Shown here: positions 28,839 to 58,375 of the stretch, piece after piece | How the letters are laid out: every line of letters starts with the position of its first letter | How positions within the stretch are numbered: position 1 is the first letter of the stretch | From: an uncultured Candidatus Saccharibacteria bacterium | GTDB lineage: Bacteria; Patescibacteriota; Minisyncoccia; Phycocordibacterales; UBA9973 | Direction of reading: 5' to 3' | Assembly: GCA_964520225.1 (NCBI GenBank) | Contig: CAZFNV010000001.1 | Location: 72,210 to 136,209, forward strand | DNA length: 64,000 nucleotides | The notes under the pieces: model-generated | What the model saw: the letters and a program-made list of their open reading frames with translations, nothing else | Databases searched by the model: none | What the model was told of the DNA's origin: nothing | Translations under genes and position numbers: made by a program

Positions 28839-28980
28839 GTAAAAAGTATAGCAGGTTGAATGTATCAAAATCTCTATTTACAAAAATAAAATTTTATTGT
28901 AAAAATTAGTGCAGATTAGCCCTTAAATAGGGTATGGTTTTTTGACAACCCTTCTAAAGGAGGACAAAAATGATCATCCT

Positions 28981-29619: not shown

Positions 29620-29731
29620 AAGAAAATTTACTTTACTAGCATTGTAACACGGCCAAGGGTCTTGCCACCACGCCTATATATATGTGTGCGGGGGCTTGCA
29701 ATTTTTATTATTTTATGCTAGTATATTAAGT

Positions 29732-29995: not shown

Positions 29996-30105
29996 ATTCT
30001 AATGGAATCAAACACCCCGAAGGAAAGCATAGCTTCCTACGGGGCGAGAAGTGGTATAATATCTCTGGGTAAAATTTTTAATATTTTGTAATTATTTTTT
30101 TATTT

Positions 30106-30615: not shown

Positions 30616-30764
30616 ATATTGCCTTTGTGAGAAAAAATGCTATTCTGTTTAAAGTTTATCAGTTAACTTGGTTCGTCTTTAGATAGAGCTAATGTTTCAC
30701 TTCAAAGTGGCACACTACTTTATTCTGAAGATGAACTCGGTCTCGTTACAGGCGAGACATATAT

Positions 30765-32900: not shown

Positions 32901-32905
32901 TAAAA

Positions 32906-33808: not shown

Positions 33809-33810
33809 GA

Positions 33811-35454
33811 TTACGCCTCCGGCAACTCTACATAGAAAGTTGAACCTTTGCCTGCGCCTTCAGACTCGGCCCAGACCCGGGACTTGTGCGCATCGAGTAT
33901 AAGCTTGACCGAGTATAGGCCATAGCCCGTGGAGTCTACATTTATTTTTACTGAATCTTTACCACGGCCACCTTCGGTAAATAGCTTCTGCTTGTCTTCC
34001 TCTGTTAGACCGACACCAGTGTCTTTGACACTAAGTAATATTTTATTATTTTGTTTTTGAAGTCGCACAGTAATGAGACCTTCTTTAGTATAAACAACAG
34101 AATTACCCACCAGATTATTCACCACCTCTTTGAGCCAGATAGGGTCACCGGTAGTTGCGAAGTCTCCTTCACCTATCTCTTTTTCTATCTTGAGCCCTTT
34201 AGCTTCCGCGGGGCCAGCCTTTTCTTCTATAACTTTTTCAACTAATTCTTTAAAATTGACCGACCTCATATCATACTGTATTTTACCTTCGCCCATATTG
34301 AATGCATTTAGAACTAGATCAACTGTCATGATACCTGCATTATCAGATTCGAGCCCAGCCTTGGCCATCCTGGTGAGATCAGGAGTAATATTGCCGAAGC
34401 TACCGTCAAGCATCCCAGAGAAAATATATTTCGAACGGGTGAAAGAACCCTTAACCTTGTGGTTGATAAGATGCATGAGCGACTCACGCTGCTTGAGTAG
34501 GTCTTGAAGCTTGAAGTTAAGCTTAGCTAACTGTTCACGCTGTTCAATCTCGCGTTTTACAGACCTAATAAGATATCTGCCTAAAATAACCGCTGTTGCA
34601 AAACCTAAACCGTTTAGAACGAAATTGGTCCGCTCTTTAATAAAAAAGAATTGGGAACCGATCAGAAAAACCAAACCCCACACCATAGCCTGGGCAGCGA
34701 AGAGTTTTATATGAAAAGTTTGATAACGAACAGATAAAATACTTATGTATATCATGAACACCACCATGCCAACTAAACCATAGAGCTCGATCTGAGAATC
34801 CGGCAATAATCCAAGTTTTGTAAAATACGTGGCCACGAACTCCATACCAAAAAAAGAGAAAAGAAATAGTTCGATTCCAACCCCCATGAGCAGTATCTGC
34901 CTCCTAAGATCGTAATCAGCGCTTTTATATCGGACAATAAAGAGGATTAATATCCAAACCATTGCCAGGAATCCTAATGCTGACCCGTAAGACTTGAAGG
35001 AGAGAGACTCAAATTCAAAAGCATCGCAGTTCGTAATATTAAAACCCGCTAAATTAGAATGACCTGCTGCAAAAATCACAATGGGTAGCAACAGCGCCAG
35101 AAGCAACACCTTGAGAGGCAAAGATATGTCCTTCTTGTTTAAGAAAACATGCGCAAAATAAATACAGAAAACTGCAATCAGTCCAAGAATAAAGGTAAAG
35201 AAAGACCACACAAAAGCTATAAATTCTCCATTCACATTTGTCCACGCGATTAATGTCCCTAGCACCCATACGGCAAAAGTAACAGAGATAAATAAGAGTA
35301 GCTTGTTAAGTAAATATTTTCTGTCCCTTGAAAATATGTAGAACCCCAACCACAAGGCAACCATGGTGGCCGGAATCTGCGCATAGTAAAGCAAAGATGG
35401 GACATCAGGGGAAAAAATAAAATATGATGGTTCTGTAAAAAGATAGCAGATCAT
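33811..35454 (-). CDS. Orphan sensor histidine kinase with an N-terminal multi-TM sensor domain
   Basis: About 8 TM helices, a dimerisation region, and an HATPase_c domain (N-box NLVGNSVVYT, DTGVGL, GYGLYSVKLILDAH). There is no adjacent response regulator. Confidence 0.7.
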   Translation of the reverse strand: MICYLFTEPSYFIFSPDVPSLLYYAQIPATMVALWLGFYIFSRDRKYLLNKLLLFISVTFAVWVLGTLIAWTNVNGEFIAFVWSFFTFILGLIAVFCIYFAHVFLNKKDISLPLKVLLLALLLPIVIFAAGHSNLAGFNITNCDAFEFESLSFKSYGSALGFLAMVWILILFIVRYKSADYDLRRQILLMGVGIELFLFSFFGMEFVATYFTKLGLLPDSQIELYGLVGMVVFMIYISILSVRYQTFHIKLFAAQAMVWGLVFLIGSQFFFIKERTNFVLNGLGFATAVILGRYLIRSVKREIEQREQLAKLNFKLQDLLKQRESLMHLINHKVKGSFTRSKYIFSGMLDGSFGNITPDLTRMAKAGLESDNAGIMTVDLVLNAFNMGEGKIQYDMRSVNFKELVEKVIEEKAGPAEAKGLKIEKEIGEGDFATTGDPIWLKEVVNNLVGNSVVYTKEGLITVRLQKQNNKILLSVKDTGVGLTEEDKQKLFTEGGRGKDSVKINVDSTGYGLYSVKLILDAHKSRVWAESEGAGKGSTFYVELPEA

Positions 35455-35891
35455 ATTGGTATTTCTTCTTGGTTTAATTCTAAGTCTTGAATCTCAACAG
35501 GGTTTTCTTCTTGGTTTTGCAGGTGCTCACAAGACCCCTGCGCAGAATCGGGGGTACAATATTCTATGTAACACTCAGTCTCACCAGGTAAACACACGCT
35601 TGCGTTTTCGCAATCAGTCACATCATTGCCACAGAATTCATATAAATTCTTTGCGTGTTTTTTCACAAGAGAATAGTAATACTCCTCGGAACATTCTTCA
35701 TCCAGACAACCCACAAAACAGCTCTCTGAAAATGGGTCGCATACCCCTTCGTAGCCCACCAGATAATCCTGCTCTATAAAAAACCGATCATAAGACAAAA
35801 CCATTATCCAAAGAGTAAAAATAAATATTATGTAAAAAAAGAAATTGTCGCGAAGGTGAGTAAGCATGATATGTTCTGCGTAAAATCGCAC
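35451..35891 (-). CDS. Small membrane-anchored 12-Cys protein, hypothetical, overlapping the histidine kinase start by 4 nt
   Basis: A TM segment (FFFYIIFIFTLWIMVL) followed by a Cys-rich acidic ectodomain. Confidence 0.45.
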   Translation of the reverse strand: MRFYAEHIMLTHLRDNFFFYIIFIFTLWIMVLSYDRFFIEQDYLVGYEGVCDPFSESCFVGCLDEECSEEYYYSLVKKHAKNLYEFCGNDVTDCENASVCLPGETECYIEYCTPDSAQGSCEHLQNQEENPVEIQDLELNQEEIPI

Positions 35892-35939
35892 AAATGAATT
35901 ATAACACAGGCAAGCTGCAATGGCCCACTCTGTAATAAA

Positions 35940-36857
35940 CTAAAGGGCGAGAAGCATGTATGTGCCCACACCAGTGATGCTAATAGCAATGAGTTTTTGA
36001 TACAAATACCTAGCTTGTATTTTTTCAACGCTAATCTTTGGGAAAAATAAGGTTAAGAATATGCCGATAGCTAACACAAAGATCGGCTGGAAGGACTCAG
36101 TGACCAACACCAGAGCCACGGGCACAAGCATATAAGCATAAGAAAAGGCGAAGTTGCCGAGCATAAACAGCACCTCGTTTAAAATATTTAATGATAAGAT
36201 TGATGTCGAATTTTCTTTTATCGCAAGCAAAAAATGCTCACGATAGGAGCGCACACCAACAAAAAGAATTATTCCTATAACAACCAGAGTAAGATGTTCC
36301 CAAAAAAGGGACCGCCAAAGATTTTCCTCTAGCGCCACCATCTTAAAGACCACTGAGCCGGCTGCCCAGAAAAAGGAGGCCGCCACCATATAGGGAACTG
36401 TTTTGCGACGAAGTTTTAATTTATTCTCCGAGTCTATTTCGAAGGAAATTATAGTAGTACCTAGAATAATTATTGCCATAGACAATATTTGCATCTGGGT
36501 AAGCGTTTCGTTTAGTATAAAATAACCCAAAACATATCCAAACACCGGTACCAGCTGATAAAAAACAATTGTAACAGAAGCCTCCTCGTCTTGGAGGGCG
36601 ACAAGGTAACACCACAGAACAAGAAAATTTAAGATACCGACGACAGCCATCACTGCTATGTTCTGCGGGTCTATATCCAATATTGTTGTGTCTGCTAAAA
36701 AAAATAGTGGTAACGGTAATGCTGAGACTAGCGCTGAAAACAAAAGTAGAGTTCCGACCCCGCTTTGTTTGAAATATTTTTCAAGTAAAATTTTATCAAT
36801 ATGGTTCGTCAGAGCGTAAAGGAACGGTCCAGACAATGCAATCAAAAACCAAATCAT
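35940..36857 (-). CDS. EamA/DMT superfamily transporter
   Basis: 10-TM architecture with duplicated EamA-like halves. Confidence 0.65.
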   Translation of the reverse strand: MIWFLIALSGPFLYALTNHIDKILLEKYFKQSGVGTLLLFSALVSALPLPLFFLADTTILDIDPQNIAVMAVVGILNFLVLWCYLVALQDEEASVTIVFYQLVPVFGYVLGYFILNETLTQMQILSMAIIILGTTIISFEIDSENKLKLRRKTVPYMVAASFFWAAGSVVFKMVALEENLWRSLFWEHLTLVVIGIILFVGVRSYREHFLLAIKENSTSILSLNILNEVLFMLGNFAFSYAYMLVPVALVLVTESFQPIFVLAIGIFLTLFFPKISVEKIQARYLYQKLIAISITGVGTYMLLAL

Positions 36858-36884
36858 TCTAGAATTATACTGTATAATAAGGGT

Positions 36885-37802
36885 TTAATCAACGGTTATA
36901 CGCAAGCCCAACTTGTATTTCTTTAAAAATTGGATGGGGCGGTAACTCATTTTGGATCTTTTGATTTCTTGTATACCCAAATCCTGCTGCCAATTCCATT
37001 CCTCAACTCCTCGTTCATAGAGATAAGTAGCTATATTTCTGTTTAGGAATTCCGCACCTCCTCTGTACTGTTTATCTACCTTGAAAAAGTGTGAGACCGC
37101 ATAGCCAAATGACAATATTTCTTCCACGGCAAATCCTACTATTCTATCGCCGACCATAATACAAGGGAACAGTATGTTTCTATGCTTGTCTGGCTCGCTC
37201 AATAGGGCATGGAAGGCCTTCTCCTCATGTAGGGCATCGTTGTCTTTGTTTTTCTTCCAATCATTAAAAACGCTTTTTATCTGATCATGCATTACACTGT
37301 CACCTAGGTGATGTAGGACAAATTTGGCGTCTGGATATTTATCTAAAAAATTTTCTGCTAAATGTCTTTTGGTTTTAAAAGCTACACCTCTTAGATCTTT
37401 GAGTAGAGAAACTGAAAATACATAATCAAAGTTATCTCTATCTTCCTCTATTATAAAATCAGACTTGTCTAGATCTTTTACAACCTCCTCTGTTACCAAT
37501 TTCAGAACGGGAGAAATACTCGCCTGTTCGGCAAATTTTATAAGCTCACGAGCAGTATCCTCGGGTTTAATGTTGCCAAAAAAAGAAAAGAAGTGGTCTC
37601 CGGACAAGTAATCGGTAAATCTAACAACAAGATTTCCGTTCAGCTTAGAAATCAGCCTTTCTTTCTTGGTATCCCAAGCCCACATACTAGTAAAGTTAAA
37701 ATCAGAGTAGGGGAGAAGATTTGAAGTAAACTCTTCTATTTCAGGCTTGTCCTCTAGGTCTATGCTCTTAAATTCTGGAAATGTAGGAATCATGAGAGAC
37801 AA
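36885..37802 (-). CDS. Hypothetical protein, possibly a DUF2156/MprF-C-like acyltransferase fold (tentative)
   Basis: Weak resemblance only; it is not membrane-bound. Confidence 0.3.
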   Translation of the reverse strand: MSLMIPTFPEFKSIDLEDKPEIEEFTSNLLPYSDFNFTSMWAWDTKKERLISKLNGNLVVRFTDYLSGDHFFSFFGNIKPEDTARELIKFAEQASISPVLKLVTEEVVKDLDKSDFIIEEDRDNFDYVFSVSLLKDLRGVAFKTKRHLAENFLDKYPDAKFVLHHLGDSVMHDQIKSVFNDWKKNKDNDALHEEKAFHALLSEPDKHRNILFPCIMVGDRIVGFAVEEILSFGYAVSHFFKVDKQYRGGAEFLNRNIATYLYERGVEEWNWQQDLGIQEIKRSKMSYRPIQFLKKYKLGLRITVD

Positions 37803-37910
37803 AGCAAAACAAAATACATAATCAATATACCAAAAAATATGCTTTTAAACAAACATTGTATTTGGAATAAAAAACATACGCTTTACCTTAAAAAGGGGGA
37901 GGCCTCGCCA

Positions 37911-37939
37911 TTGACAAAATGCAAAAAATATGCTAATCA
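37911..37939 (+). promoter_or_regulatory. Sigma70-like promoter TTGACA-17-TAATCA with a TGc extended -10, driving the first high-GC gene; SD AAAGGTAG
   Basis: It shares TTGACA-N8-AAAATATGCTAAT with the promoter at 39571. Confidence 0.45.
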
Positions 37940-37974
37940 GATGAGGAAAGTTCATTAAAAAGAAAGGTAGAAAA

Positions 37975-39420
37975 ATGAAGAGCAAGCTGACCTTCGTGGC
38001 CGCGTTCGTGCTGGTGCTGGTGGCGATCCTCGCCATCGGGTTCTGGACCTCCGAGGTCCAGGCTCAAGAGGTTGCCCCCATGGAGTGGGGGACGATCGAA
38101 GGTGCCAAGGGGACGGCCAACTTGGCCGAGCTCCAAAAGGAGATCAAACGGCTCTCTACGGAGCTTGAAGCAGTTCGTAGAGAAGTGGCCAAGCTCCCTC
38201 AGCTACAACGGGAGCTAAACGAGCTCAAAGCGAGAGGGCAAGCGCCACCATCTGCAACCGCCATCGATGCTTCGCCGCGCATGAGCGCGGCGGCTGAGAC
38301 TGTCCCGAAGGATGAGGCGCGACCTCAGGTCCTCGGCCTCACCTGGGGCCAAGCTGCTCTAGTGGCGCTGTTTCTCGGGTCGGCTTGGGCTTACTACTGG
38401 TGGAGACAACACAAGCCAGAAGAAGTAACTCCAGCAAGACCGAGCGGGATGCCTGGCCTCGCCAGCATCTTTCCGCCAGATCACACAGAAGATCCGTCGG
38501 AGACAGTCGCCTACAATCATGAAAAGAGGCGGCCGCAGTTTCCGCCCGAAAAGAAAGGATGGCGGGAAAAAATGCCTGAGGTGGTACAAAATTGGCTGAG
38601 AGCCAACTTCCCGGGTGCGGGATGGGTCATCCTCCTCGCGCTCATGGGCTCCGCCCAGGCGCAGGAGGCCGGCATCCCGCCGTGCAAGATCGGTCCGATC
38701 TTGGCTGGCGGACTCGTCACCGCTGGGCAGGAGAAGCAAATCCAGATCTCCGTCCGCGGATGCGGAGAGGTGAAGGGGATCAAAACCACAGGAAGCGCTG
38801 TCAGGTTCGGTACGGTGTCTCGTGACGGCAGCATCATCACCACTTCGGCCGTAGTGGAAGAAGATGCGTCTGCATCCACTAGGCCGATCCGTCTCGTTCT
38901 GGAGAACGGAAGCGAGGTGGAGGCTCCGAGAGGGGTCTTCATCATCGTTCGCTCGAAGAGCGAGGAAGACATCCGCCGTGAAGCTGCAGCGGCTACGGCC
39001 AAAGTCAACACGAGAGTGTCCTCCCTGCGGGAGGAGATGATCGCCGGGTTCGCCGAGCTCCGTAAGGAATCTGGCCAGCCTCGCACGGTGGTGCCCCTCG
39101 AGGCATCACCCTCACCCAACCACAAATTGGTCGAGGCAGCCCTCCCGAGCTTGCTCGAGCGGATCGACCGTCTCGAGAAGGCTCCTGTGACGACGTCCAC
39201 ACCAGTCAGCTCGGCCGAGCTGGAGGAGTTGCGAAAGGACATTCGCAAGCTCTTCCATCTCGTCGACGAATTGGCAGAGAATGACCGCCGAATCGCCCGG
39301 ATTCAGGTCGTAGACAAGAAATACTTCGGCCTGAAAAGAACACAGCGGATGTTCAGTCAGCCGACGTTTGACTCGGCCACGGCAATACAGTTGTCGGTCA
39401 GAAAGGAGACGAAGAAGTAA
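37975..39420 (+). CDS. High-GC (foreign-like) secreted membrane protein: signal peptide, coiled coil, TM, second hydrophobic segment, ~100-aa Cys-pair beta domain and a C-terminal coiled coil. Paralog of 39784..40959.
   Basis: Full-length ORF with GC-rich third codon positions and an N-terminal signal peptide MKSKLTFVAAFVLVLVAILAIG. The beta-domain motif IQISVRGCGEVKG...RLVLENGSEV...VFIIVRS aligns with the downstream gene. Confidence 0.6.
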   Translation: MKSKLTFVAAFVLVLVAILAIGFWTSEVQAQEVAPMEWGTIEGAKGTANLAELQKEIKRLSTELEAVRREVAKLPQLQRELNELKARGQAPPSATAIDASPRMSAAAETVPKDEARPQVLGLTWGQAALVALFLGSAWAYYWWRQHKPEEVTPARPSGMPGLASIFPPDHTEDPSETVAYNHEKRRPQFPPEKKGWREKMPEVVQNWLRANFPGAGWVILLALMGSAQAQEAGIPPCKIGPILAGGLVTAGQEKQIQISVRGCGEVKGIKTTGSAVRFGTVSRDGSIITTSAVVEEDASASTRPIRLVLENGSEVEAPRGVFIIVRSKSEEDIRREAAAATAKVNTRVSSLREEMIAGFAELRKESGQPRTVVPLEASPSPNHKLVEAALPSLLERIDRLEKAPVTTSTPVSSAELEELRKDIRKLFHLVDELAENDRRIARIQVVDKKYFGLKRTQRMFSQPTFDSATAIQLSVRKETKK

Positions 39421-39487
39421 TGAAGCTTGGGTAGCCCGGTGACACCCTAAGATCACCGGCAGGTGAAGGCCCTGATCGCCTTCGATA

Positions 39488-39526
39488 GGCCCGGCGCGTT
39501 TTACGCGCTGGGCCTTTAACTTTTCT
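39488..39526 (+). terminator. Rho-independent terminator (GGCCCGGCGCG-UUUUA-CGCGCUGGGCC followed by a U-rich tract)
   Basis: Seen in sequence. Confidence 0.6.
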
Positions 39527-39570
39527 ATAAAAAACCAAAACACACATATTTTAAATAAGCAATAATATTC

Positions 39571-39599
39571 TTGACATTTTAGGTAAAATATGCTAATAT
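39571..39599 (+). promoter_or_regulatory. Sigma70-like promoter TTGACA-17-TAATAT (TGcTAATAT extended -10) in the AT-rich spacer between the two high-GC genes
   Basis: Seen in sequence. Confidence 0.5.
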
Positions 39600-39783
39600 A
39601 TTAAGATATAGTTCTTTGACTTTTTACTTCTAAAATCCCGTAGTAGATCCTAATAGCTTTAGGATTCACTACAGGATATATTCTACCTACATATATTTGG
39701 ACGAGGCAGATAGCGCCCCTAAGGGGCATTACCTGCTTCGCCCAAATTTTTTGGGTGATAGAAACTTCCTGAGGAGGAAGACC

Positions 39784-40959
39784 ATGACGAAGATCATGTC
39801 GTTCGTTCTCGCGCTCGTGCTGTCGTCGTTCGTCGCCGGCGCCCAGGAGGTCCCCGTCCGGGACTTTCCGCCCGAGACGACGCCGACGGCGTCGCCCACG
39901 GCCACGCCCCGCCCCACCCCGGCCGCCAACGCGGTGGCCCCGACTCCCGAGAAGGAGGAGGAGTCCTGGCCGTGGTGGATGCTCCCAATCGGAGTTTTGA
40001 GCGGGATCGTAGCGATCGGAGGCGGGATCTGGTTCTTCTTCTGGCGCAAGCCGAAGGAGAAACCGGCGCCTCGTCGCCCCATCGGGCACGAGGATGCGGA
40101 TGAGCCGCCGCACCACCACGGTGGTGGGCACGGCACGGCCATCGCCCTCTTGCTCAGCCTGACCCTCGTGGGTCAGGTCTGGGCACAGACGCCCGCGCCC
40201 TCGCCGACCGCTACGCCGGCTTCGCCGGCGTGCGAGATCGTGAAGGTCATCAGTGAGCACACCGTGGTTCGGAGCGTTCCGAACCCGGTGACCAAACCGG
40301 CGGACGTCGAGTTCCGTCTCGCCGTCCGGGGTTGCGAAACCCCGGCGGTGAAGGGGGTCGAGGCCGCCGCACGCGGCGTCTCGTTCACCGACGTCACCCG
40401 CGAGGGTGACGTGGTCAAGGCGAAGGTGGTCGTCACCACCGACGCCGAGACGGGCCCTGCCCGCCTTCGCCTCGTCCTCGCGGACGGGTCGAAGGTAAAG
40501 AGCCTGGAGAACGTTTTCATCGACGTTCGTTCGGCCGAGGTCGCCGCGGCCCACAAGGTCGCGATGGCCGAAATCTCCCGTGCGTCCTCCGTCGCTCACA
40601 AGGCGGCGAAGGACGTCGCGACGATCCGAACCGAGCTCGCTCGGGTCGAGGCGGACCTCGGGCGGCAGCTCGCTTCCGTGGAGGCTTCGGCCTTGACGGA
40701 GGCGCAGGTGCGCGCGATCGTCGTCGAGGCCCTGTCTCCTTTGTACAAGGAGATCCAGGTTCTCGCGCGGGTGGACGATGCCATCGCTGGCAATCTCCAC
40801 GAGCTCGCCTCCGCCACCGAGTTGGTGGCCAAGGAGAAGGTGAAGAAAAGCACCTTCGGGGGTAAGAAGCCCCACAACCTCGAGGCCGCCAAGATGGCGG
40901 AGGAGATCAGGAAGAACCTCTCGCTGGAAGGTGAGGGAGGAAAGGAGGACGAATCGTAG
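39784..40959 (+). CDS. High-GC (foreign-like) secreted membrane protein, paralog of 37975..39420: signal peptide, Pro/Thr linker, TM, His/Gly-rich loop, second hydrophobic segment, Cys-pair beta domain, coiled coil
   Basis: The start is taken at the ATG at 39784 (MTKIMSFVLALVLSSFVAGAQE) with SD GAGGAGGA. Beta domain FRLAVRGCETPAVKG...RLVLADGSKV...VFIDVRS. The long antisense ORF 39601..40986 is a GC artefact. Confidence 0.6.
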   Translation: MTKIMSFVLALVLSSFVAGAQEVPVRDFPPETTPTASPTATPRPTPAANAVAPTPEKEEESWPWWMLPIGVLSGIVAIGGGIWFFFWRKPKEKPAPRRPIGHEDADEPPHHHGGGHGTAIALLLSLTLVGQVWAQTPAPSPTATPASPACEIVKVISEHTVVRSVPNPVTKPADVEFRLAVRGCETPAVKGVEAAARGVSFTDVTREGDVVKAKVVVTTDAETGPARLRLVLADGSKVKSLENVFIDVRSAEVAAAHKVAMAEISRASSVAHKAAKDVATIRTELARVEADLGRQLASVEASALTEAQVRAIVVEALSPLYKEIQVLARVDDAIAGNLHELASATELVAKEKVKKSTFGGKKPHNLEAAKMAEEIRKNLSLEGEGGKEDES

Positions 40960-41129
40960 AAGTAGTAAGGGGTGAGGTCGCGACACCCAAAGTTCGCGAC
41001 AACGGTAGTGGATCCCGATGATCTACAATATCAAGAGCCAGCACGTACCCCAAGAAAGGAGGAACGCTGGCTCTTTAACATTTATGGGCAACACTAGCGA
41101 GAAAATTTTTTAAATAATATAATTAATAA

Positions 41130-43577
41130 ATGCCAAAACTATCTTTAGATTTAAGTAGTCAACCAATCGCAAAAAGTAAAGACGTTCCGCCGCAAAAAGG
41201 GCTGGAAGAAAAATTGAAAAAATTTAAGGCAGAAACTTTAGAAATACTTCAGGCAAATGTGAATGATGTAGGTTTTCTAGTTGAAAAAAAGAAGAGTGAA
41301 TGGTTCGCGAAGCAGTTCGCAGAACTTTCCACCAAAGCACCAAAAGGAACATTGGGGAGATTTCTAAAAGGGCTCGAAAAGTCATTTAAGTCAGATGCGG
41401 AAGTTGCTAAAAAGAAGCTGGATGCGGAAAACAAAGGAGTGCTAACAAAGGTCTCGAGCGTGGCACATTTGGCAAAAAATGTTTTACGTCCGATTCGCCT
41501 TATAATGGATGTCACAGGAATGTCGCCAGCTGGAGCACAAAGGCTAGTAATGGCCGGAGGGATGCTAACTTCACGAGTACTCGGCGCAAGTAAGGAGGCT
41601 CGTTTTGCGAATGAAAAACTCATAGAACAAACTCGCGGTGGTACCACAGAAGCGGATATCCAAAAAGCTGAAGAAGAAGCCTGGAGAATATACAATCGGG
41701 CTAGGTTAGATTCTGGTGTTCAAATTCCACCTGAAGATGTTGAATATTATAAAAGCGGAGAAGCGGGGGTAAAACACAATGTTACAGTTGATGCGCTCAA
41801 GAAAGCGTATTTAAAAGGTATTCCAAAAGATTTACAAGAAAGACTCAAAAAAGACACAGGAGCAGTTTATGATCTCACTCAAAGAATTTTAAGAAGGTCT
41901 TTAGAGCTGAGTGTTGCCAAGTTGAATAATAATATAAGAAAAATAAAGGAGAATAAAAAACTTTCGGCTGAAAAAAAGAAGGCGAAGACGGAAGAGCTTT
42001 TGCGTTGGTGGGAAAGGGGGCTTATGGATTATGATCGCGCCTTAACACAGGCAGGTACAGTAGACAAATTTGCAGTTCTCGCGCGCTACGGAGAAACAGC
42101 CGCAAAAACATTAGTCCGTGCAGCGACATTGCAAACAGCCTACCTAACCCTAGAGAAAGTTTGGGAAGGGCTGGCAAAGATAGGAGCAAGTCTGGCATCA
42201 CAAGACGATTTTAGCGCGTATGATCTAAAGGCAAATCTGAAAGTAAAAGAACTGGCCACGGCAAGGTTAACAAAAATTGCAGAGAAAGCCGAGCTCGCAC
42301 AAAAAAATTTAGAAGCAAATAAGGCAGCAGAAGCAAGGTGGCGAGCTGATACAATGTGGGGACAACCGACAAAGGTACCCATGGCACCTGCGACAACAGA
42401 AGTCGAAACACCACAAACAACAACTCCGACAGGACCTACTCCTACTCTAGAGTCTACTCCAGAGGGAGCACAAGTAAAAACAGAAATCTCAGAGGAAAAA
42501 CCTGAGGTTAATGTTACACCAACAGAAGCAACACATGGGGTAGAAGAAACTCCAGAAAAGCCTCGAGAATTTGCGGACGAAGAAGATACAGAAGTTGCCC
42601 CTACTGAAACAAAGGCAGAAGAAGTGGTAACACCAACTGCGCCAGCAGAAACACCAGCAACGCCAGAAGAAATGACCGAAGAGCCTAGAGATTTTTCTGA
42701 GGAGGAGGAAGTAATGAAAATTCCTATGGGTGGCAATGAAAACCCACTAAGAACTGAAAGCTTAGAAGAGTTAGAAGCATCAGACGAAGACACAACCAAA
42801 GAGGAGCTAGGTGATAAACATAAGAAGTTTGGTTTTGAGGTTAATAAACGAGAGGAAGTAAAATTACATCCAGAACAAACAGAGTACTTGAGAGGTATCG
42901 GTGTACCTGAGGAAAAAATGGGCGACCCTGAAGCTATACGCCAATACTTAGAAGGAGATGTGCCAGAATCTGATGAGGCGCCAATACACATGACGGCTGA
43001 ATATAATCCAGGAAACATATCTGCGGATGTAGACACTACTGAAGAAATTGCTGGAGAAGAAACCACACCAAAAAATAGTATAGAAAAAGTAATAAAAAAG
43101 TTGGAGCACGCATATGGAGAGCCTGGGAAAATAGAAACTGAGTACTTAGAAGACAAGGAGATAGTCCCAGAGCAAGCCGAGATGGTAGAAGAGGCTCCAG
43201 TCCAAGAAAACATTACAGAAGAGATTGCAGGGAATAGGTACGACCTGTCGCCCGAGGCTCTACAAGAAGTAGATACGGCATACAACGATGCCCTACACAA
43301 GCTTGCTTATGGTGAAGAAACGAAACTTGCAGGAACAAAGATATCTACATTCCTACCAAAAAATCCAAAAATAATTGCCGAGGGTTTTGATATGGAAGGG
43401 GTTAAAACTCCAGTGCATTCCTATCTCGAAAAAGTTCGCGCCATAACTGGAGTAAAGCCCAAGCTTGGTGGATGGTTTAGTAGGGAAGAAAATGTAGAAA
43501 AATATCTTGCGCGCGCGCTACAATACGCTGCAGCAAGGAATGACGGCACCCTGGAAAAACTCAAGATAGTCGGCTAG
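41130..43577 (+). CDS. Large (815 aa) acidic hypothetical protein with a Thr/Pro/Glu-rich low-complexity centre; no TM
   Basis: ORF spanning the whole interval and tightly spaced to uvrD. Confidence 0.5.
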   Translation: MPKLSLDLSSQPIAKSKDVPPQKGLEEKLKKFKAETLEILQANVNDVGFLVEKKKSEWFAKQFAELSTKAPKGTLGRFLKGLEKSFKSDAEVAKKKLDAENKGVLTKVSSVAHLAKNVLRPIRLIMDVTGMSPAGAQRLVMAGGMLTSRVLGASKEARFANEKLIEQTRGGTTEADIQKAEEEAWRIYNRARLDSGVQIPPEDVEYYKSGEAGVKHNVTVDALKKAYLKGIPKDLQERLKKDTGAVYDLTQRILRRSLELSVAKLNNNIRKIKENKKLSAEKKKAKTEELLRWWERGLMDYDRALTQAGTVDKFAVLARYGETAAKTLVRAATLQTAYLTLEKVWEGLAKIGASLASQDDFSAYDLKANLKVKELATARLTKIAEKAELAQKNLEANKAAEARWRADTMWGQPTKVPMAPATTEVETPQTTTPTGPTPTLESTPEGAQVKTEISEEKPEVNVTPTEATHGVEETPEKPREFADEEDTEVAPTETKAEEVVTPTAPAETPATPEEMTEEPRDFSEEEEVMKIPMGGNENPLRTESLEELEASDEDTTKEELGDKHKKFGFEVNKREEVKLHPEQTEYLRGIGVPEEKMGDPEAIRQYLEGDVPESDEAPIHMTAEYNPGNISADVDTTEEIAGEETTPKNSIEKVIKKLEHAYGEPGKIETEYLEDKEIVPEQAEMVEEAPVQENITEEIAGNRYDLSPEALQEVDTAYNDALHKLAYGEETKLAGTKISTFLPKNPKIIAEGFDMEGVKTPVHSYLEKVRAITGVKPKLGGWFSREENVEKYLARALQYAAARNDGTLEKLKIVG

Positions 43578-43595
43578 CTGTGTTATATTATCTAG

Positions 43596-45770
43596 GTGCA
43601 GGGGAAAAATCATCTAGACGAACTAAATCCTAAACAAAGAGAAGCGGCCATCCACAAAGACGGGCCGCTTTTGGTCGTGGCCGGCGCAGGTGCGGGTAAA
43701 ACTAAAACCATAACTCACCGCATAGTGAACTTGATAAATGAGGGTGTCGCGCCAGATAGCATACTCGCAGTAACTTTTACCAATAAAGCAGCAAAGGAAA
43801 TGCGGGAAAGAATATTGAAAGCTTTAGAAGAACGAAGAGCGGAACATCCTCCTCGCTTTCCTCGCCAGCCCAGCGTGCCGGCTCAGGGTTTCGCCCTCAC
43901 TACCGAGCCGAGCTCGGACCATGCTATTGAGGGCTCAAAACCCGCTGCGGAGGGTGTTCCGCCCTTCGTCTCTACCTTTCATTCGCTCGGTGTACATATA
44001 TTGAAAGAGAATGCGCGCAGGCTAGGGCTCAGCCGATATTTCAGCATACTAGATGAGGGTGATGTGGTGAGTATGATCCGCGAAATACAGAAGGAGCTAG
44101 GTATTGATCCAAAACAATATGAACCAAGGAAAATACGCGGAGCAATCTCGCGCGAGAAAGGTAAGTTTGCACATATTGATGAATACGCAGGCGCCAATAT
44201 GAACCCGTTCGGCCGAATAGTCACAGAAGTCTGGCGCAAATATGAAGACAGAAAAGCGGGGGAGAATGCGCTCGACTTCGACGACCTGCTACTTAAAACA
44301 GTAAAGCTCTTGAAGGAGCACGAGGATGTTCGAGAACATTATCAAAGCCGCTGGCAATACATACACGTAGATGAATATCAGGATACGAATGAAGTGCAGT
44401 ACCTCCTGACCAAACTCCTCGCAGAGAAACATCAGAATATTTGTGTGGTAGGGGATGGCGATCAAAACATATACAGCTGGCGCGGAGCAAATTTGAAAAA
44501 TATTTTGAACTTTGAGAAGGATTATAAAAATGCGAAGGTAGTGCTCTTGGAAGAGAATTATAGATCGACGCAAAATATTCTAGAAGCAGCGAATGAAGTG
44601 ATAAAGAAAAATCAATTTCGCGTAGAGAAAAATCTTTTCACTCGCAATGACACGGGGGAGAAGATCGGGTTATATGAAGCGCTCTCTGAAGCAGAAGAAG
44701 CCGACTTCGTAGCGACGAAAATTTTGGAAATTATAGACAGCGGAGCCACTGATGCTTTCGAGGGACTTGGGAGCGCGACGGCGCGAGCACGAGGAATTTT
44801 TCAGCAGAAAAATATCCGTACCCTAGAAAGTATTAGTGGCGACGCAGATTCTTCGGATATAAAAATTCTATCATCTGCTCCGCCTGATTTTTCTGACATT
44901 GCAGTTCTTTACCGCACTAATTTCCAGTCACGAGTGCTTGAAGAAGCGATGCTCCGCTACAATATTCCATATCAAGTGCTCGGAGTAAAATTCTTTGAAC
45001 GTAAAGAGGTGAAGGACACGCTAGCCTACCTCCGCGCAGCATTAAACCCTGAAAGTTTGTCAGACATAAAAAGAATAATAAACTTTCCAAAGCGAGGCAT
45101 AGGTAAGGCAACACTAGATAAAGTGTTTGCAAAAAATCTAGAGAGTTTGCCTGCCAGCACGAGAGTTAAAATAAATTCTTTCTACCAACTACTCACGGAG
45201 ATAAAAGAAAAGATAGAGACAGTAAGTGCAGAAGAGGCGATAAAATTCACAGTGAAAAAGTCAGGAATTGAACGAGAGTTGTTAGAAGGTGGTGAAGATG
45301 ATGCAGAAAGACTAGCCAACATTAAAGAGCTGGCTACGCTCGCGCTTAAATATGAAGAGCTCGAGCCACCACGTGGAATTGAAAAATTATTAGAGGAGGC
45401 ATCGCTTGCTACTGATCAAGATTCGCTAACAGAAAAAAGTGCAAAAAAAGATAAGTTTGGAGTGAAGCTCATGACTGTACACGCATCGAAGGGGCTAGAA
45501 TTTAAATATGTATTCGTGGTTGGGCTTGAAGATGGACTTTTCCCAGCTTCGGCAAGAGGTGGTGAGAAAAGAGATGATGAAGAAGAACGCCGACTTTTCT
45601 ATGTAGCTCTCACTCGCGCACGACATAAAATATTTTTGTCTTTCGCAAATTTTCGCACCATATTCGGCTCTCGCCAGATAAACGCACCATCAGAATTCTT
45701 AAGCGACATACCTGCCGACCTACTCGAACGCGAAAGGGACAAAAGCGGAGTAAAAACGATTTATATATAG
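43596..45770 (+). CDS. uvrD: UvrD/PcrA-type ATP-dependent DNA helicase (GTG start) carrying a ~47-aa GC-rich Pro/Ala-rich insertion after motif Ia
   Basis: VVAGAGAGKTKT (motif I), TFTNKAAKEM (Ia), DEYQDTN (II), and later helicase motifs. Confidence 0.85.
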   Translation: MQGKNHLDELNPKQREAAIHKDGPLLVVAGAGAGKTKTITHRIVNLINEGVAPDSILAVTFTNKAAKEMRERILKALEERRAEHPPRFPRQPSVPAQGFALTTEPSSDHAIEGSKPAAEGVPPFVSTFHSLGVHILKENARRLGLSRYFSILDEGDVVSMIREIQKELGIDPKQYEPRKIRGAISREKGKFAHIDEYAGANMNPFGRIVTEVWRKYEDRKAGENALDFDDLLLKTVKLLKEHEDVREHYQSRWQYIHVDEYQDTNEVQYLLTKLLAEKHQNICVVGDGDQNIYSWRGANLKNILNFEKDYKNAKVVLLEENYRSTQNILEAANEVIKKNQFRVEKNLFTRNDTGEKIGLYEALSEAEEADFVATKILEIIDSGATDAFEGLGSATARARGIFQQKNIRTLESISGDADSSDIKILSSAPPDFSDIAVLYRTNFQSRVLEEAMLRYNIPYQVLGVKFFERKEVKDTLAYLRAALNPESLSDIKRIINFPKRGIGKATLDKVFAKNLESLPASTRVKINSFYQLLTEIKEKIETVSAEEAIKFTVKKSGIERELLEGGEDDAERLANIKELATLALKYEELEPPRGIEKLLEEASLATDQDSLTEKSAKKDKFGVKLMTVHASKGLEFKYVFVVGLEDGLFPASARGGEKRDDEEERRLFYVALTRARHKIFLSFANFRTIFGSRQINAPSEFLSDIPADLLERERDKSGVKTIYI

Positions 45771-57696: not shown

Positions 57697-57701
57697 TAAA
57701 C

Positions 57702-58340: not shown

Positions 58341-58375
58341 TAGATAGCGTGCTAGTATATATCTAAACAAAAACG

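What the first reader, a model, noticed from the sequence alone, without database searches (positions are those of the whole stretch)
37911..41075. High-GC island carrying a paralogous pair of secreted coiled-coil membrane proteins of an unrecognised family, under native-looking AT-rich promoters
Both ORFs (37975-39420 and 39784-40959) are ~62-65% GC with G/C-dominated third codon positions, against ~38% GC in the surrounding genome. They share an architecture I cannot assign to any known family: a cleavable signal peptide, a TM helix, a short cytoplasmic loop, a second signal-like hydrophobic segment, a ~100-aa beta-type domain with a conserved Cys pair (C-x(22-27)-VRGC ... RLVL.-GS.V ... VFI.VRS), and a long C-terminal coiled coil. 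Each is preceded by an AT-rich sigma70-type promoter sharing TTGACA-N8-AAAATATGCTAAT plus an SD, and the pair is separated by a GC hairpin terminator. Most native genes here are leaderless. That points to a gene (with its promoter) from a high-GC donor that was duplicated and embedded in the host regulatory context, or to an assembly chimera.
Basis: seen in the sequence. Interest (0 to 1): 0.8.

Follow-up and report, generated by a model that had tools for sequence, protein, structure and literature searches.

The report
Permanently GC-rich surface-protein genes in CPR bacterium
Two neighbouring genes for membrane-anchored surface proteins in an AT-rich ultra-small (CPR/Patescibacteria) bacterium are real, native and inherited. 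In every relative checked they are kept far more GC-rich and more tightly RNA-folded than the rest of the genome, so this is not a fresh foreign import or an assembly error.

Summary
ORF1 (37975-39420) and ORF2 (39784-40959) have GC3 of 0.70 and 0.86, against 0.32-0.45 in flanking genes. They are paralogues and share a promoter type. The interpretation (recent import from a high-GC donor, or a chimera) does not hold. An independent assembly spans both junctions. Eleven loci from different samples carry 14 copies of this small family (29 clusters in 1.84 billion proteins). The longer contigs show the same neighbourhood (EamA, UvrD). Every copy is a GC island (GC3 0.58-0.86) in AT-rich DNA, although synonymous sites of flanking orthologues are near saturation. 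GC-richness follows the transcript body, from a conserved 5' hairpin to the terminator. Spacers between the two genes are 0.17-0.29 GC. Family coding sequences fold far more stably than synonymous shuffles (z -3 to -9); native genes do not. Native genes lack Shine-Dalgarno sites, while ORF2 and most family copies have long leaders and strong ones. My best reading is a native envelope-protein locus whose mRNA is kept GC-rich and structured by selection. The force itself is unproven. The protein has a signal peptide, a transmembrane hairpin, an Ig-like domain and a coiled coil. Its function is unknown.

The parts
37911..37939 (+). Promoter of ORF1: TTGACA, 17-nt spacer containing a TATG (-16 TRTG-type) motif, then TAATCA
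   Evidence: Exact match to the shared pattern. It is one of only two sites in 64 kb that fit TTGACA-N12-TRTG-N-TANNNT with at most 1 mismatch. The same promoter type precedes family genes in L002, L003, L004, L005, L010, L016, L017 and L018.
37975..39420 (+). ORF1, 481 aa. It has a signal peptide, an N-terminal coiled coil, a TM helix, a loop, a second signal-like hydrophobic segment, an Ig-like 2-Cys domain (about 38680-38967), a coiled coil and a basic C-terminus. GC is 0.60 and GC3 0.70.
   Evidence: The orthologue is the 509-aa gene of L002 (28-33% identity). The coding sequence folds more stably than synonymous shuffles, z -5.0.
39421..39515 (+). 3' UTR of ORF1, GC 0.63, with three hairpins. 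Hairpin 1 is 39436-39459 (loop ACACCCUAAGA). Hairpin 2 is 39465-39483 (loop CCCUGAUC). The terminator is 39487-39515, followed by UUUAACUUUU.
   Evidence: MFE -48 kcal/mol, z -3.8. Terminator scan. The same three-hairpin layout and the CCYGAUC loop occur in L002, L003, L004, L005 and L017.
39516..39694 (+). AT-rich gap between the two GC-rich genes: spacer (GC 0.18), ORF2 promoter 39571-39599 (TTGACA-17-TAATAT with TG), and early leader (GC 0.29)
   Evidence: The low GC here argues against a regional GC-raising process.
39696..39749 (+). Conserved 5'-leader hairpin UUUGGACGAGGCAGAUAG...CUUCGCCCAAA. No Rfam family matches it.
   Evidence: RNAalifold on 8 copies gives 22 pairs, 7 of them with compensatory changes. 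The covariance model R1 scores 70 bits here and finds no other copy in the window. It scores 68 bits on L014, which was not in the training set. Sense scores are about 20 bits above antisense. Rfam has no credible hit.
39765..39780 (+). Mini-hairpin CUUCC-UGAGGA-GGAAG that partly encloses the Shine-Dalgarno sequence GAGGAGG (39771-39777), 6 nt before the ATG
   Evidence: Read directly from the sequence. Flagged as an inverted repeat. The same arrangement lies before the L002 373-aa gene. A function as a translational gate is inferred only.
39784..40959 (+). ORF2, 391 aa. It has a signal peptide (cleavage predicted after AGA, residue 20), the motif QEVPVRDF, a Pro/Thr linker, TM helix 66-87, a basic/His loop, a second hydrophobic helix 117-129 ending in VWA-Q, an Ig-like 2-Cys domain (about 40231-40533), a coiled coil at 251-350 and a C-terminal motif KVKK..FGGKKPHN..AEEIRK. 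GC is 0.67 and GC3 0.86.
   Evidence: The orthologue is P0003 of L002 (40-46% identity). The coding sequence folds far more stably than synonymous shuffles: z -9.4 with whole-gene shuffles and -8.4 with 40-codon blocks.
40960..41079 (+). 3' UTR of ORF2, GC 0.53, with hairpins at 40977-41000 and 41004-41032 (loop CCCGAU). The terminator AGAGCCAGC...GCUGGCUCU is at 41034-41074; its loop carries GAAAGGAGG and it is followed by UUAAC.
   Evidence: Fold z -3.5. The pattern is unique in the window. Bases 41027-41079 are identical over 53 nt to L002 9716-9768. That is the longest exact match in 20 kb compared between the two genomes.

Best explanation
This is a native, vertically inherited locus of a CPR/Patescibacteria lineage. 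It encodes two paralogous envelope proteins.

Protein (inferred from sequence and model): each is exported by a signal peptide and held in the membrane by a helical hairpin. Outside the cell it displays an Ig-like, probably disulfide-bonded domain followed by a roughly 100-residue coiled coil and a conserved basic C-terminal motif.

Transcript (partly shown, partly inferred): each gene is its own transcription unit, built differently from the rest of the genome.
- A near-consensus strong promoter.
- For ORF2-type genes, a long leader with a conserved stem-loop.
- A Shine-Dalgarno site (strong for ORF2, weak for ORF1) in a genome whose other genes are leaderless or lack one.
- A coding sequence written in G/C-ending codons and arranged to base-pair locally.
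- A 3' UTR with three hairpins.

I propose that the high GC is an actively maintained property of the transcript, not a scar of transfer. It would make a heavily structured, nuclease-resistant, long-lived mRNA that needs an SD site to be translated, and so supply an abundant surface protein in a very small, slow cell.

Shown here: the composition, its persistence across lineages, its confinement to the transcript body, the excess folding, and the conserved RNA elements.

Inferred: that selection on mRNA stability or translation is the cause, and that the protein sits on the surface and is abundant.

The confidence of 0.45 is for the whole statement, including the cause. That the locus is native and its composition actively maintained I hold at about 0.8.
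For: Native and inherited:
- Eleven loci carry 14 family copies. The four that reach far enough show UvrD downstream, directly (L003, L005) or after one large gene (window, L002, L016); L002 and L016 also share the upstream EamA..PNPase block. L004 keeps only the 815-aa-like neighbour, L009 and L018 lie beside a LysM/M23 gene instead, and L010, L015 and L017 show other neighbours.
- An independent assembly spans the junctions.
- No flanking direct repeats and no adjacent tRNA or integrase.

Maintained composition:
- Family GC3 is 0.58-0.86, against 0.19-0.52 in neighbouring genes.
- Four-fold sites of window/L002 flanking orthologues are 0.32-0.41 identical, against 0.25-0.28 expected, so they are near saturation.
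- ORF2-type copies exceed ORF1-type copies in GC3 in all three genomes that have both: 0.86/0.70, 0.79/0.68 and 0.64/0.58.

Tied to the transcript, not the region:
- The leader hairpin, CDS and 3' UTR are 0.51-0.67 GC.
- The spacer, promoter and early leader between two GC-rich genes are 0.17-0.34.

Excess structure:
- Nine of nine family coding sequences fold more stably than synonymous-codon shuffles, z -3.0 to -9.4. This survives shuffling within 40-codon blocks.
- Seven native genes give z -0.9 to +1.3. Two genes from truly GC-rich contigs give -1.9 and +0.5.
- The excess is larger on the sense strand in 8 of 9 genes.

Dedicated RNA elements:
- The leader hairpin shows covariation.
- The 3' UTRs fold into hairpins with a conserved loop, z -2.3 to -6.9.
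- The same promoter and leader precede other GC-rich genes: the L004 203-aa gene, and the L014 215-aa gene, which has no signal peptide. Composition therefore goes with the regulatory module rather than with one protein family.

Translation signals: native genes lack SD sites.
Against: - There are no expression, half-life or proteome data, so stability and abundance are inferred.
- Most of the excess folding is strand-symmetric (mean excess -87 kcal sense against -68 antisense). A DNA-level or mutational cause is not excluded.
- Only two control genes from GC-rich genomes were available.
- ORF1 and L009 lack the leader hairpin and are still GC-rich. The L004 203-aa gene has the leader but shows no excess folding (z -0.4).
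- I know of no documented case where selection for mRNA structure pushes GC3 to 0.86 in a genome at 0.40. Selection on each synonymous site would have to be strong in lineages expected to have small populations.
- GC1 and GC2 are also raised, which is also what a long history in a GC-rich genome would produce.
Confidence: 0.45

Rival explanations
1. Ancient horizontal transfer from a GC-rich donor, either a single old event with unusually slow amelioration or repeated re-acquisition or allelic replacement. The foreign-type SD site and codon usage would be leftovers.
For: - GC1/GC2/GC3 of ORF2 (0.67/0.49/0.86) look like a gene from a genome of about 66% GC.
- The genes use SD sites while native genes do not.
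- One homologue of the Ig-like domain, P0019, lies on a uniformly 0.6-GC contig.
- ORF2 and its L002 orthologue share more identical codons than flanking genes do: 0.68 against 0.47 expected, and 33 of 39 in the first 60 codons. A 53-nt non-coding stretch is identical between the two genomes. Both could reflect later exchange between lineages.
- A 30-kb region of 63-68% GC has been reported in a CPR genome of 51% GC (bioRxiv 10.1101/2020.04.08.032540).
Against: - The locus sits in a conserved neighbourhood wherever the contigs reach far enough, and is GC-rich in all 11 CPR loci.
- The paralogue pair predates the window/L002/L016 splits.
- Flanking four-fold sites are near saturation. By my rough estimate a passive signal would have lost about two thirds of its excess per lineage since the window/L002 split alone.
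- Only 1 of 15 inspected contexts is GC-rich, and the whole family is 29 clusters in 1.84 billion proteins. No donor pool is visible.
- Transfer does not explain the excess folding over synonymous shuffles.
- It does not explain why AT-rich host-type promoters and leaders are conserved as part of the unit, or why the same module precedes unrelated GC-rich genes.
Confidence: 0.15
2. GC-biased gene conversion at a recombination hot spot. Surface-antigen alleles would be exchanged often between cells, using the conserved promoter/leader and terminator as homology arms, and GC-biased repair would drive GC upward.
For: - The proteins evolve fast (28-46% identity where PNPase is 82% and UvrD 74%), as expected for exposed antigens.
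- Non-coding flanks are highly conserved, including the 53-nt identity at non-orthologous positions.
- The locally low synonymous divergence at the 5' end of ORF2 would fit mosaic exchange.
Against: - The unconstrained spacers and early leaders inside the locus, between two GC-rich genes, are 0.17-0.29 GC, below the genome average. Conversion tracts should not skip them.
- Neighbouring gene ends show no GC rise.
- Biased conversion does not predict codon arrangements that raise folding above synonymous shuffles.
- From my own knowledge of the literature, the effects reported for bacteria are a few percent of GC3, not a doubling.
Confidence: 0.1
3. Codon-level control of translation. G/C-ending codons are rare in this genome, so the genes would be translated slowly, or only when particular tRNAs or ribosome states are available. 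That could help membrane insertion of a protein with complex topology, or gate its expression.
For: - The composition change begins at about codon 2 and ends at the stop codon.
- The family proteins all have a signal peptide and a two-helix membrane hairpin.
- The genes use a different initiation mode from native genes.
Against: - The 3' UTRs and the leader hairpin are also GC-rich although not translated.
- The L014 215-aa gene, with the same leader and GC3 0.71, has no signal peptide.
- Rare-codon use does not predict excess base-pairing relative to shuffles that keep codon usage.
- The full tRNA set of the genome is not in the window, so this was not tested directly.
Confidence: 0.12
4. Mobile gene cassettes. 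The conserved imperfect hairpin would be a recombination site, as attC is in integrons, and GC-rich cassettes running from the hairpin to the terminator would be captured downstream of resident promoters.
For: - GC-richness starts at the hairpin and ends at the terminator.
- The 5' arm of the hairpin is invariant while the 3' arm and the top vary.
- The same promoter and hairpin precede at least three unrelated genes.
Against: - No integrase is adjacent. The nearest tyrosine recombinase is 9 kb away and looks Xer-like.
- ORF1-type copies are GC-rich without any hairpin.
- G-U pairs and a 20-bit sense-strand advantage in the covariance model point to an RNA element.
- Gene order is stable where the loci can be compared, with no cassette arrays.
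- No RYYYAAC/GTTRRRY cores are visible on reading the sequence.
Confidence: 0.05
5. Assembly or binning chimera that joins GC-rich DNA of another organism to an AT-rich contig.
For: Only the abrupt composition change.
Against: - An independent Logan contig is identical over 16.3 kb across both junctions.
- The same junction architecture occurs in ten other loci from NCBI, ENA, JGI and Logan assemblies of different samples.
- The junctions fall inside conserved functional units: promoter, leader, SD, ATG.
Confidence: 0.01

Closest known systems
Compositionally atypical genomic islands from horizontal transfer (including the 30-kb region of 63-68% GC reported in the CPR genome UBA1547, bioRxiv 10.1101/2020.04.08.032540)
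   Same: A sharp GC and codon-usage jump relative to the host genome. In the UBA1547 case the jump was also shown by spanning long reads to be real rather than a mis-assembly.
   Different: - Here each island is a single gene.
- It sits at a conserved chromosomal site in many lineages and has no mobility signature.
- Its family is essentially confined to the same AT-rich lineage.
- It stays GC-rich although neutral sites of neighbouring genes are saturated.
Genes for abundant surface proteins whose mRNA is stabilised by a structured 5' UTR. Examples from my own knowledge, not checked in papers here: S-layer genes such as Lactobacillus slpA, E. coli ompA, B. subtilis aprE, and the STAB-SD of B. 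thuringiensis cryIIIA
   Same: A strong promoter, a long leader with a stable stem-loop, a strong SD site, a hairpin-rich 3' end and a secreted envelope protein. The proposed logic, a long-lived mRNA for a high-copy protein, is the same.
   Different: In those cases only the UTR carries the stabiliser. Here the whole coding sequence is recoded to high GC and to extra base-pairing, in a genome that otherwise uses no SD sites. No abundance or half-life data exist for this locus.
Phage 'morons': autonomous units with their own promoter and terminator and an atypical composition (own knowledge)
   Same: Each gene is a self-contained unit of promoter, gene and terminator, with a composition unlike its neighbours.
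   Different: The locus is not in a prophage. It is flanked by housekeeping genes (EamA transporter, UvrD, PNPase) and its position is conserved over deep divergence.
Ig-like (E-set) beta-sandwich domains of bacterial surface proteins, for example the Bacteroides SGBP-B domain (6e57) and domains of the S-layer protein SbsC (4uj8)
   Same: The predicted fold of residues 151-249 of ORF2 is a two-sheet beta-sandwich. Foldseek gives E about 3e-4 and probability about 1.0.
   Different: The similarity is at fold level only (about 20% identity or less over 100 residues). No sequence family matches. The combination with a TM hairpin, an N-terminal QxxxPR motif and a C-terminal coiled coil is not found in those proteins.
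Integron attC hairpins
   Same: An imperfect inverted repeat with conserved bottom, variable top and conserved mismatches, adjacent to different genes.
   Different: The hairpin lies upstream of the gene and downstream of a promoter. It behaves as a sense-strand RNA element, with no adjacent integrase and no cassette arrays.

Membership tests
Recently acquired horizontal-transfer island | Composition and codon usage unlike the host genome | tested here: met
   GC3 is 0.70 and 0.86, against 0.32-0.45 in flanking genes.
Recently acquired horizontal-transfer island | Patchy presence: absent from the same site in related genomes | tested here: not met
   The pair is present between EamA and UvrD in L002 and L016, and a family copy lies directly upstream of UvrD in L003 and L005. 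L004 does not reach UvrD.
Recently acquired horizontal-transfer island | Closest homologues lie in a donor lineage of matching composition | tested here: not met
   The family is 29 clusters in 1.84 billion proteins. Of 15 inspected genomic contexts, 14 are AT-rich CPR-type contigs and one (L008) is GC-rich.
Recently acquired horizontal-transfer island | Mobility signature: flanking direct repeats, or an adjacent tRNA or integrase | tested here: not met
   No direct repeats bracket the island. The nearest tRNA is about 16 kb away. The nearest recombinase is 9 kb away.
Assembly chimera | The junction is not reproduced by independent assemblies or samples | tested here: not met
   A Logan contig is identical across both junctions. 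Ten further loci show the same junction type.
Assembly chimera | No read pairs span the junction, or coverage changes abruptly | not testable with these tools
   Reads of SRR15237813 could not be mapped here.
Any curated protein family (Pfam-A, NCBIfam, PDB sequences) | A match above the curated threshold | tested here: not met
   Only sub-threshold coiled-coil noise was found.
Ig-like / E-set beta-sandwich fold | A two-sheet beta-sandwich of about 100 residues that matches solved Ig-like domains | tested here: met
   AlphaFold pLDDT is above 90 for residues 151-249. Foldseek hits SGBP-B, titin Ig and SbsC at E 3e-4 to 4e-3. This is fold level only.
Any Rfam RNA family (for the 5' leader hairpin) | A covariance-model match at or near the gathering score | tested here: not met
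   The only hits at gathering score are tRNAs. In the relaxed search, one spurious 21-bit hit to a miRNA precursor.
Abundant surface or S-layer protein gene with an mRNA-stabilising leader | A secreted protein behind a strong promoter and a long structured 5' UTR | tested here: met
   Signal peptides. A consensus promoter with a TG/TRTG motif. A 185-nt leader with a covarying hairpin for ORF2. ORF1 has only a short leader.
Abundant surface or S-layer protein gene with an mRNA-stabilising leader | High transcript stability and protein abundance, or lattice formation | not testable with these tools
   No transcriptome, proteome or imaging data are available.
Abundant surface or S-layer protein gene with an mRNA-stabilising leader | A known wall-anchoring domain (SLH, CWB2 and the like) | tested here: not met
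   No Pfam domain is found. Anchoring appears to be by a TM hairpin instead.
Integron-type gene cassette | An adjacent intI integrase, promoterless cassettes in arrays, and attC with RYYYAAC/GTTRRRY cores | tested here: not met
   No integrase is adjacent. Each gene has its own promoter. The cores are not visible on reading the sequence. No dedicated attC search tool was run.

The most novel reading that the evidence does not exclude
These ultra-small bacteria may run two mRNA regimes in one cell. The bulk of genes would be AT-rich, leaderless and free of Shine-Dalgarno sites. A small regulon would instead share a strong promoter and, usually, the UUGGACGAGGCAGAUAG leader hairpin. That regulon includes this surface-protein family, the L004 203-aa gene and the L014 215-aa gene, and perhaps the metzincin-like lipoprotein at 1800-2740 and the L002 210-aa gene. 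Its members are SD-dependent and are kept GC-rich and hyper-structured over their whole length, as a heritable, selected property of the transcript. Gene-specific GC content would then be a regulatory or stability device rather than a record of ancestry.

A still bolder variant cannot be excluded and has no direct support: codon usage, SD site and signal peptide are tuned for expression inside a GC-rich host cell after transfer through the type IV secretion system encoded at 57-60 kb. I put that at no more than 0.03.
Probability: 0.3. Interest if true: 0.85.

Novelty: new variant of a known kind. Interest (0 to 1): 0.72.

Why it matters
- Method: atypical GC is routinely read as horizontal transfer or contamination, and binning tools discard such stretches. 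Here the atypical composition is a stable, inherited and apparently functional property of particular genes. It is a counter-example worth knowing for HGT detection, for amelioration clocks and for cleaning metagenome-assembled genomes of CPR bacteria.
- RNA biology: the locus offers a testable case of whole-transcript recoding for RNA structure. It comes with a new conserved 5'-leader motif and new 3'-UTR motifs, and an SD-dependent gene set inside an otherwise leaderless genome.
- CPR biology: the locus points to a lineage-specific envelope protein (Ig-like domain on a coiled-coil stalk with a membrane hairpin). It is a candidate component of the poorly known surface that these episymbionts use to meet their hosts.

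Tried and rejected
- Word-indexed homologue searches. Three searches with ORF1, ORF2 and a 4-sequence profile found only self and one relative. The exhaustive HMMER search was needed to find the family.
- Protein-based locus scan of genome contigs. The 25-sequence alignment had no stretch conserved enough to search with, so I used the leader DNA motif instead.
- Metagenome motif hits. Two of the four are chance: L012 lies inside a coding region and scores 13 bits, and L013 lies in a GC-rich contig and scores 28 bits.
- Rfam. No family matches the leader.
- Antisense ORFs. The long antisense ORFs (39601-40986, 461 aa; 38517-39248, 243 aa) were considered as genes and rejected. They are the usual stop-free shadow frames of GC-rich DNA and are not conserved in length in L002.
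- Translational selection for optimal codons. Rejected because PNPase and the other housekeeping genes in the window do not share the bias.
- Diversity-generating retroelement or A-specific mutagenesis. No A depletion relative to T in the genes (AT skew is zero or positive). I did not search for a reverse transcriptase or template repeat.
- Flanking att-like direct repeats. None found.
- S-layer identity. Literature searches found no description of this family or of GC-rich native genes in CPR, so I do not claim it.
- Sense versus antisense folding test. It gives only a weak sense bias, so it does not settle RNA-level against DNA-level causes.

Full report
**1. The observation**

The window averages about 0.42 GC. 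Between 37.9 and 41.1 kb two blocks rise to 0.54-0.63 and 0.65-0.71, separated by an AT-rich gap.

| Gene | Coordinates | Length | GC1/GC2/GC3 |
|---|---|---|---|
| ORF1 | 37975-39420 | 481 aa | 0.62/0.47/0.70 |
| ORF2 | 39784-40959 | 391 aa | 0.67/0.49/0.86 |
| 12 neighbouring genes | - | - | GC3 0.32-0.45 |

The two proteins are paralogues over about 120 residues (33% identity, E 9e-11).

The shared promoter string occurs only at 37911 and 39571 in 64 kb. A 13-pair GC hairpin terminator lies between the genes at 39487-39515. No Pfam, NCBIfam or PDB sequence family matches.

**2. Not a chimera**

The Logan assembly of run SRR15237813 contains a 16,320-bp contig identical to window 28474-44793. 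It crosses every composition junction. More importantly, the same structure recurs in assemblies of other samples (section 3).

**3. A small family, always GC-rich, in a recurring neighbourhood**

Word-indexed searches found only one relative. An exhaustive HMMER search of 1.84 billion cluster representatives, using the domain profile, found 29 proteins. Nearly all are 330-570 aa (the full-length ones mostly 400-570) with the domain in the same relative position.

The alignment shows a common plan:
- a signal peptide ending in A-Q, then x-x-P-R;
- a Pro/Thr/Ala-rich linker, with or without a coiled coil;
- a TM helix, a short charged loop, and a second hydrophobic segment ending in a signal-peptidase-like A-x-A;
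- a domain of about 100 residues with two nearly invariant Cys;
- a long coiled coil;
- a C-terminal motif of the type LAEGQ..LA..KVKK.FWG.KKPLNPEVAEAAERIRQA.

I recovered DNA for 15 family genes.
- Fourteen of them lie in eleven AT-rich loci: the window, L002, L003, L004, L005, L009, L010 and L015-L018.
- MAG records label these loci Candidatus Saccharibacteria or Paceibacterota, and one comes from 0.1-um-filtered groundwater.
- In all fourteen the gene is a GC island: GC 0.51-0.67 and GC3 0.58-0.86, next to genes with GC3 of 0.19-0.52.

Where the contigs are long enough the neighbourhood is conserved.
- L002 and L016 repeat the window's order: PNPase .. HATPase .. EamA .. [pair] .. large protein .. 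UvrD.
- L003 and L005 have a family gene directly upstream of UvrD.
- The shorter loci are less informative. L004 keeps only the 815-aa-like neighbour, L009 and L018 lie beside a LysM/Peptidase_M23 gene, and L010, L015 and L017 show unrelated neighbours.
- The ORF1-type/ORF2-type pair is present in the window, L002 and L016, so the duplication is older than their divergence.

The fifteenth gene, P0019, sits on a 1.4-kb contig that is 0.6 GC throughout. It shares only the Ig-like domain.

**4. Why passive foreign ancestry is not enough**

| Window vs L002 | Amino-acid identity |
|---|---|
| PNPase | 82% |
| UvrD | 62-74% |
| UbiA | 66% |
| ORF2-type | 40-46% |
| ORF1-type | 28-33% |

At codons with the same amino acid, four-fold sites of flanking orthologues are 0.32-0.41 identical, against 0.25-0.28 expected from composition. 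They are close to saturation.

My back-of-envelope estimate (an inference) starts from a Jukes-Cantor distance of about 1.4 substitutions per site between the two genomes. On that basis, a neutral GC3 excess should have lost roughly two thirds of its size in each lineage since this split alone. The family is much older than that split. Yet GC3 is 0.86 and 0.79 for the ORF2-type copies and 0.70 and 0.68 for the ORF1-type copies. In all three genomes with both paralogues the ORF2-type copy is the richer one. That looks like gene-specific set-points rather than a common decay curve.

**5. The composition follows the transcript, not the region**

| Segment (window and L002) | GC |
|---|---|
| Leader hairpin | 0.51-0.56 |
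| Late leader | 0.42-0.61 |
| Coding sequences | 0.57-0.67 |
| 3' UTRs up to the terminator | 0.51-0.63 |
| Non-transcribed spacers | 0.17-0.26 |
| Promoters | 0.21-0.34 |
| Early leaders | 0.25-0.29 |

The AT-rich segments keep these low values even when they lie between two GC-rich genes. A regional process such as biased gene conversion, a local mutation bias or a replication effect would not skip these poorly conserved stretches.

**6. Dedicated regulatory RNA**

- Promoter: TTGACA, a 17-nt spacer with a TATG motif, then TAATAT or a near variant. Only the two sites in the window fit this pattern, and the same promoter precedes family genes elsewhere.
- Leader hairpin: ORF2-type and most single-copy genes carry a hairpin 50-95 nt downstream. 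It reads UUUGGACGAGGCAGAUAG, variable top, YUCGYCCAAA.
  - RNAalifold on eight copies predicts 22 pairs, 7 with compensatory changes. The lower stem is conserved in sequence, and most copies keep an A-C mismatch.
  - A covariance model finds one copy in the window (39696-39749, 70 bits). It also finds an unseen copy in L014 (68 bits). Sense always scores about 20 bits above antisense.
  - Rfam has nothing comparable.
- 3' UTRs: they fold into three hairpins (z -2.3 to -6.9). The middle loop is conserved as CCYGAUC. In several loci the terminator loop carries GAAAGGAGG.
- A 53-nt terminator segment is identical between the window (after ORF2) and L002 (after the ORF1-type gene). It is the longest exact match in 20 kb compared.
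- The promoter-plus-hairpin module also precedes other GC-rich genes: a 203-aa secreted coiled-coil protein in L004, and a 215-aa Cys-rich protein without a signal peptide in L014/L011 (GC3 0.71). High GC therefore goes with the module rather than with one protein family.

**7. A different way of starting translation**

About 40 native gene starts in the window show almost no Shine-Dalgarno sequence. Several have a TATAAT box 6-10 nt before the ATG, which implies leaderless mRNAs. ORF2 (GAGGAGG), the family genes in other loci and the other GC-rich genes have long leaders with strong SD sites. ORF1 has only a short leader and a weak SD. In ORF2 and its L002 orthologue the SD sits in a small CUUCC/GGAAG hairpin.

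**8. Excess base-pairing in the coding sequence**

I compared summed MFEs of 120-nt windows with those of sequences in which synonymous codons were permuted. The protein and the gene's own codon usage were kept.

| Gene set | z-score |
|---|---|
| 9 family genes | -3.0 to -9.4 (ORF1 -5.0, ORF2 -9.4) |
| 3 other GC-rich CPR genes | -2.2 to -2.9 |
| L004 203-aa gene | -0.4 |
| 7 native genes | -0.9 to +1.3 |
| 2 genes from truly GC-rich contigs | -1.9 and +0.5 |

Restricting the permutation to 40-codon blocks leaves the result intact: -5.0 to -8.4, with controls at -0.2 and -0.4. In ORF2 the excess is spread over most windows.

Folding the reverse complement shows that most of the excess is strand-symmetric. 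The sense strand has the larger excess in 8 of 9 genes, with a mean of -87 against -68 kcal. Codon order in these genes therefore favours local pairing. That the relevant molecule is the mRNA is likely but not proven.

**9. The protein**

AlphaFold with the family alignment gives mean pLDDT 76.5 for ORF2:
- signal-peptide helix 2-17;
- TM helix 66-87;
- hydrophobic helix 117-129;
- a confident beta-sandwich at 151-249;
- two long helices at 251-301 and 306-350;
- a small C-terminal element.

Residues 21-30, the conserved QEVPVRDF motif, are also modelled with high confidence and include a strand. This hints that the mature N-terminus may dock on the sandwich. Foldseek against the PDB returns only generic Ig-like domains: SGBP-B, titin, NCAM and SbsC, at E 3e-4 and weaker.

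The inferred topology puts both the N-terminal segment and the Ig-like/coiled-coil part outside the cell, joined by a membrane hairpin. If the A-x-A site after the second helix is cleaved, the outer part would be released instead. A surface role (attachment, envelope scaffold) is plausible but not shown.

**10. Synthesis**

The locus is native and inherited, and its composition is actively maintained. I hold that with about 0.8 confidence.

The most coherent cause is selection on the transcript. A strong promoter, 5' and 3' protective hairpins, a GC-rich and over-paired body and an SD site together would make a long-lived mRNA that can still be translated. That would suit a high-copy envelope protein in a cell with few ribosomes and few transcripts. 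I put about 0.4-0.45 on this.

The rivals are:
- ancient transfer with retention or re-acquisition (0.15);
- codon-level translational control (0.12);
- biased gene conversion (0.10);
- hairpin-mediated cassettes (0.05);
- a chimera (0.01).

The weak points are the lack of any expression data, the largely strand-symmetric folding excess, the few GC-rich control genes, and the absence of a precedent for so large a selected shift in GC3.

**11. Novelty**

The protein family and the RNA motifs are undescribed in the libraries searched. Four literature searches found no description of native, persistently GC-rich genes in CPR bacteria. The nearest report is a 30-kb GC-rich region in a CPR genome, which its authors interpreted as possible recent transfer or a mobile element.

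I classify the finding as a new variant of a known kind: an autonomous, highly equipped surface-protein transcription unit. There is a realistic chance that it represents a new principle, in which gene-specific GC content is a maintained property of the transcript.

Noticed in passing
window 1800-2740 (minus strand; ATG near 2698, stop near 1875): A second GC-rich island (GC 0.57-0.68, flanks 0.32-0.39). It encodes a lipoprotein-type secreted protein with a HELGHAVIGLCH metzincin-like zinc motif; Pfam Peptidase_M10 matches only at E 0.006. It has its own promoter (TTGCAA..TGGTATAAT), an SD site AAGGAGGG and a GC hairpin after the stop. Codon-shuffle folding gives z -2.9. It has no leader hairpin. 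Its relatives were not searched.
   Followed up: partly
whole window, about 40 gene starts: Native genes almost never have a Shine-Dalgarno sequence. Several carry TATAAT 6-10 nt upstream of the ATG, which implies mostly leaderless or SD-independent initiation in this organism. The 16S anti-SD tail is not in the window, so it could not be checked.
   Followed up: partly
window 41130-43577 (+); L002 11344-13851; L004 4049-6529: An 815-835-aa protein always lies just downstream of the GC-rich pair. Its N- and C-terminal parts are conserved and its centre is an acidic Pro/Thr-rich stretch. It has host-like GC3 (0.32), no signal peptide and no Pfam or NCBIfam match. It could be a functional partner.
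   Followed up: no
L002 7162-7794: The related genome has a third GC-rich gene (210 aa, GC3 0.69, signal peptide, beta-rich, no Pfam) at the position where the window has an LPG_synthase_C gene (36885-37802). Codon-shuffle z is -2.2.
   Followed up: partly
L014 680-1700 (and L011), contigs OBEQ010343551.1 and Ga0209515_10002103: The same promoter and leader hairpin precede an unrelated GC-rich gene: 215 aa from the first ATG, or 203 aa from the SD-led ATG. It is Cys-rich and zinc-ribbon-like, has no signal peptide and has GC3 0.71, in a background of 0.34-0.53 GC.
   Followed up: partly
window 41027-41079 vs L002 9716-9768: A 53-nt exact identity in a terminator hairpin whose loop contains GAAAGGAGG. 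It lies at non-orthologous positions in two genomes whose synonymous sites are near saturation. Similar loops occur in L004 and L017. Together with the CCYGAUC loop of the middle 3'-UTR hairpin, these resemble parts of an extended SD sequence (AAGGAGGUGAUC). A possible contact with the ribosomal 3' tail is untested.
   Followed up: partly
window 39784-39963 vs L002 10001-10180: In the first 60 codons of ORF2 and its orthologue, 33 of 39 positions with the same amino acid use the same codon, against 17 expected. This includes a low-complexity Pro/Thr linker. The rest of the gene and the flanking genes are far less conserved at synonymous sites. This could be a constraint on the RNA at the 5' end of the gene, or a recent conversion.
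   Followed up: partly
L008 (Logan SRR20950758, 1.4 kb): This is the only homologue of the Ig-like domain found in uniformly GC-rich DNA (0.54-0.64). Its N- and C-terminal parts are different, and it has no CPR-type promoter or leader. The direction of transfer is unknown.
   Followed up: partly
L002 13871-16957 vs window 43596-45770: UvrD is 1028 aa in the relative, with a weak Intein_splicing hit, but 724 aa in the window. An intein is probably present in one lineage only.
   Followed up: no
window 57277-60214; 27873-28868; 2927-3238; 30106-30615 and 52823-53362: Context genes: type IV secretion components (PrgI, and a VirB4/TraG-like ATPase), a Xer-type tyrosine recombinase, a GIY-YIG nuclease next to the first GC island, and two NYN-domain genes.
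   Followed up: no
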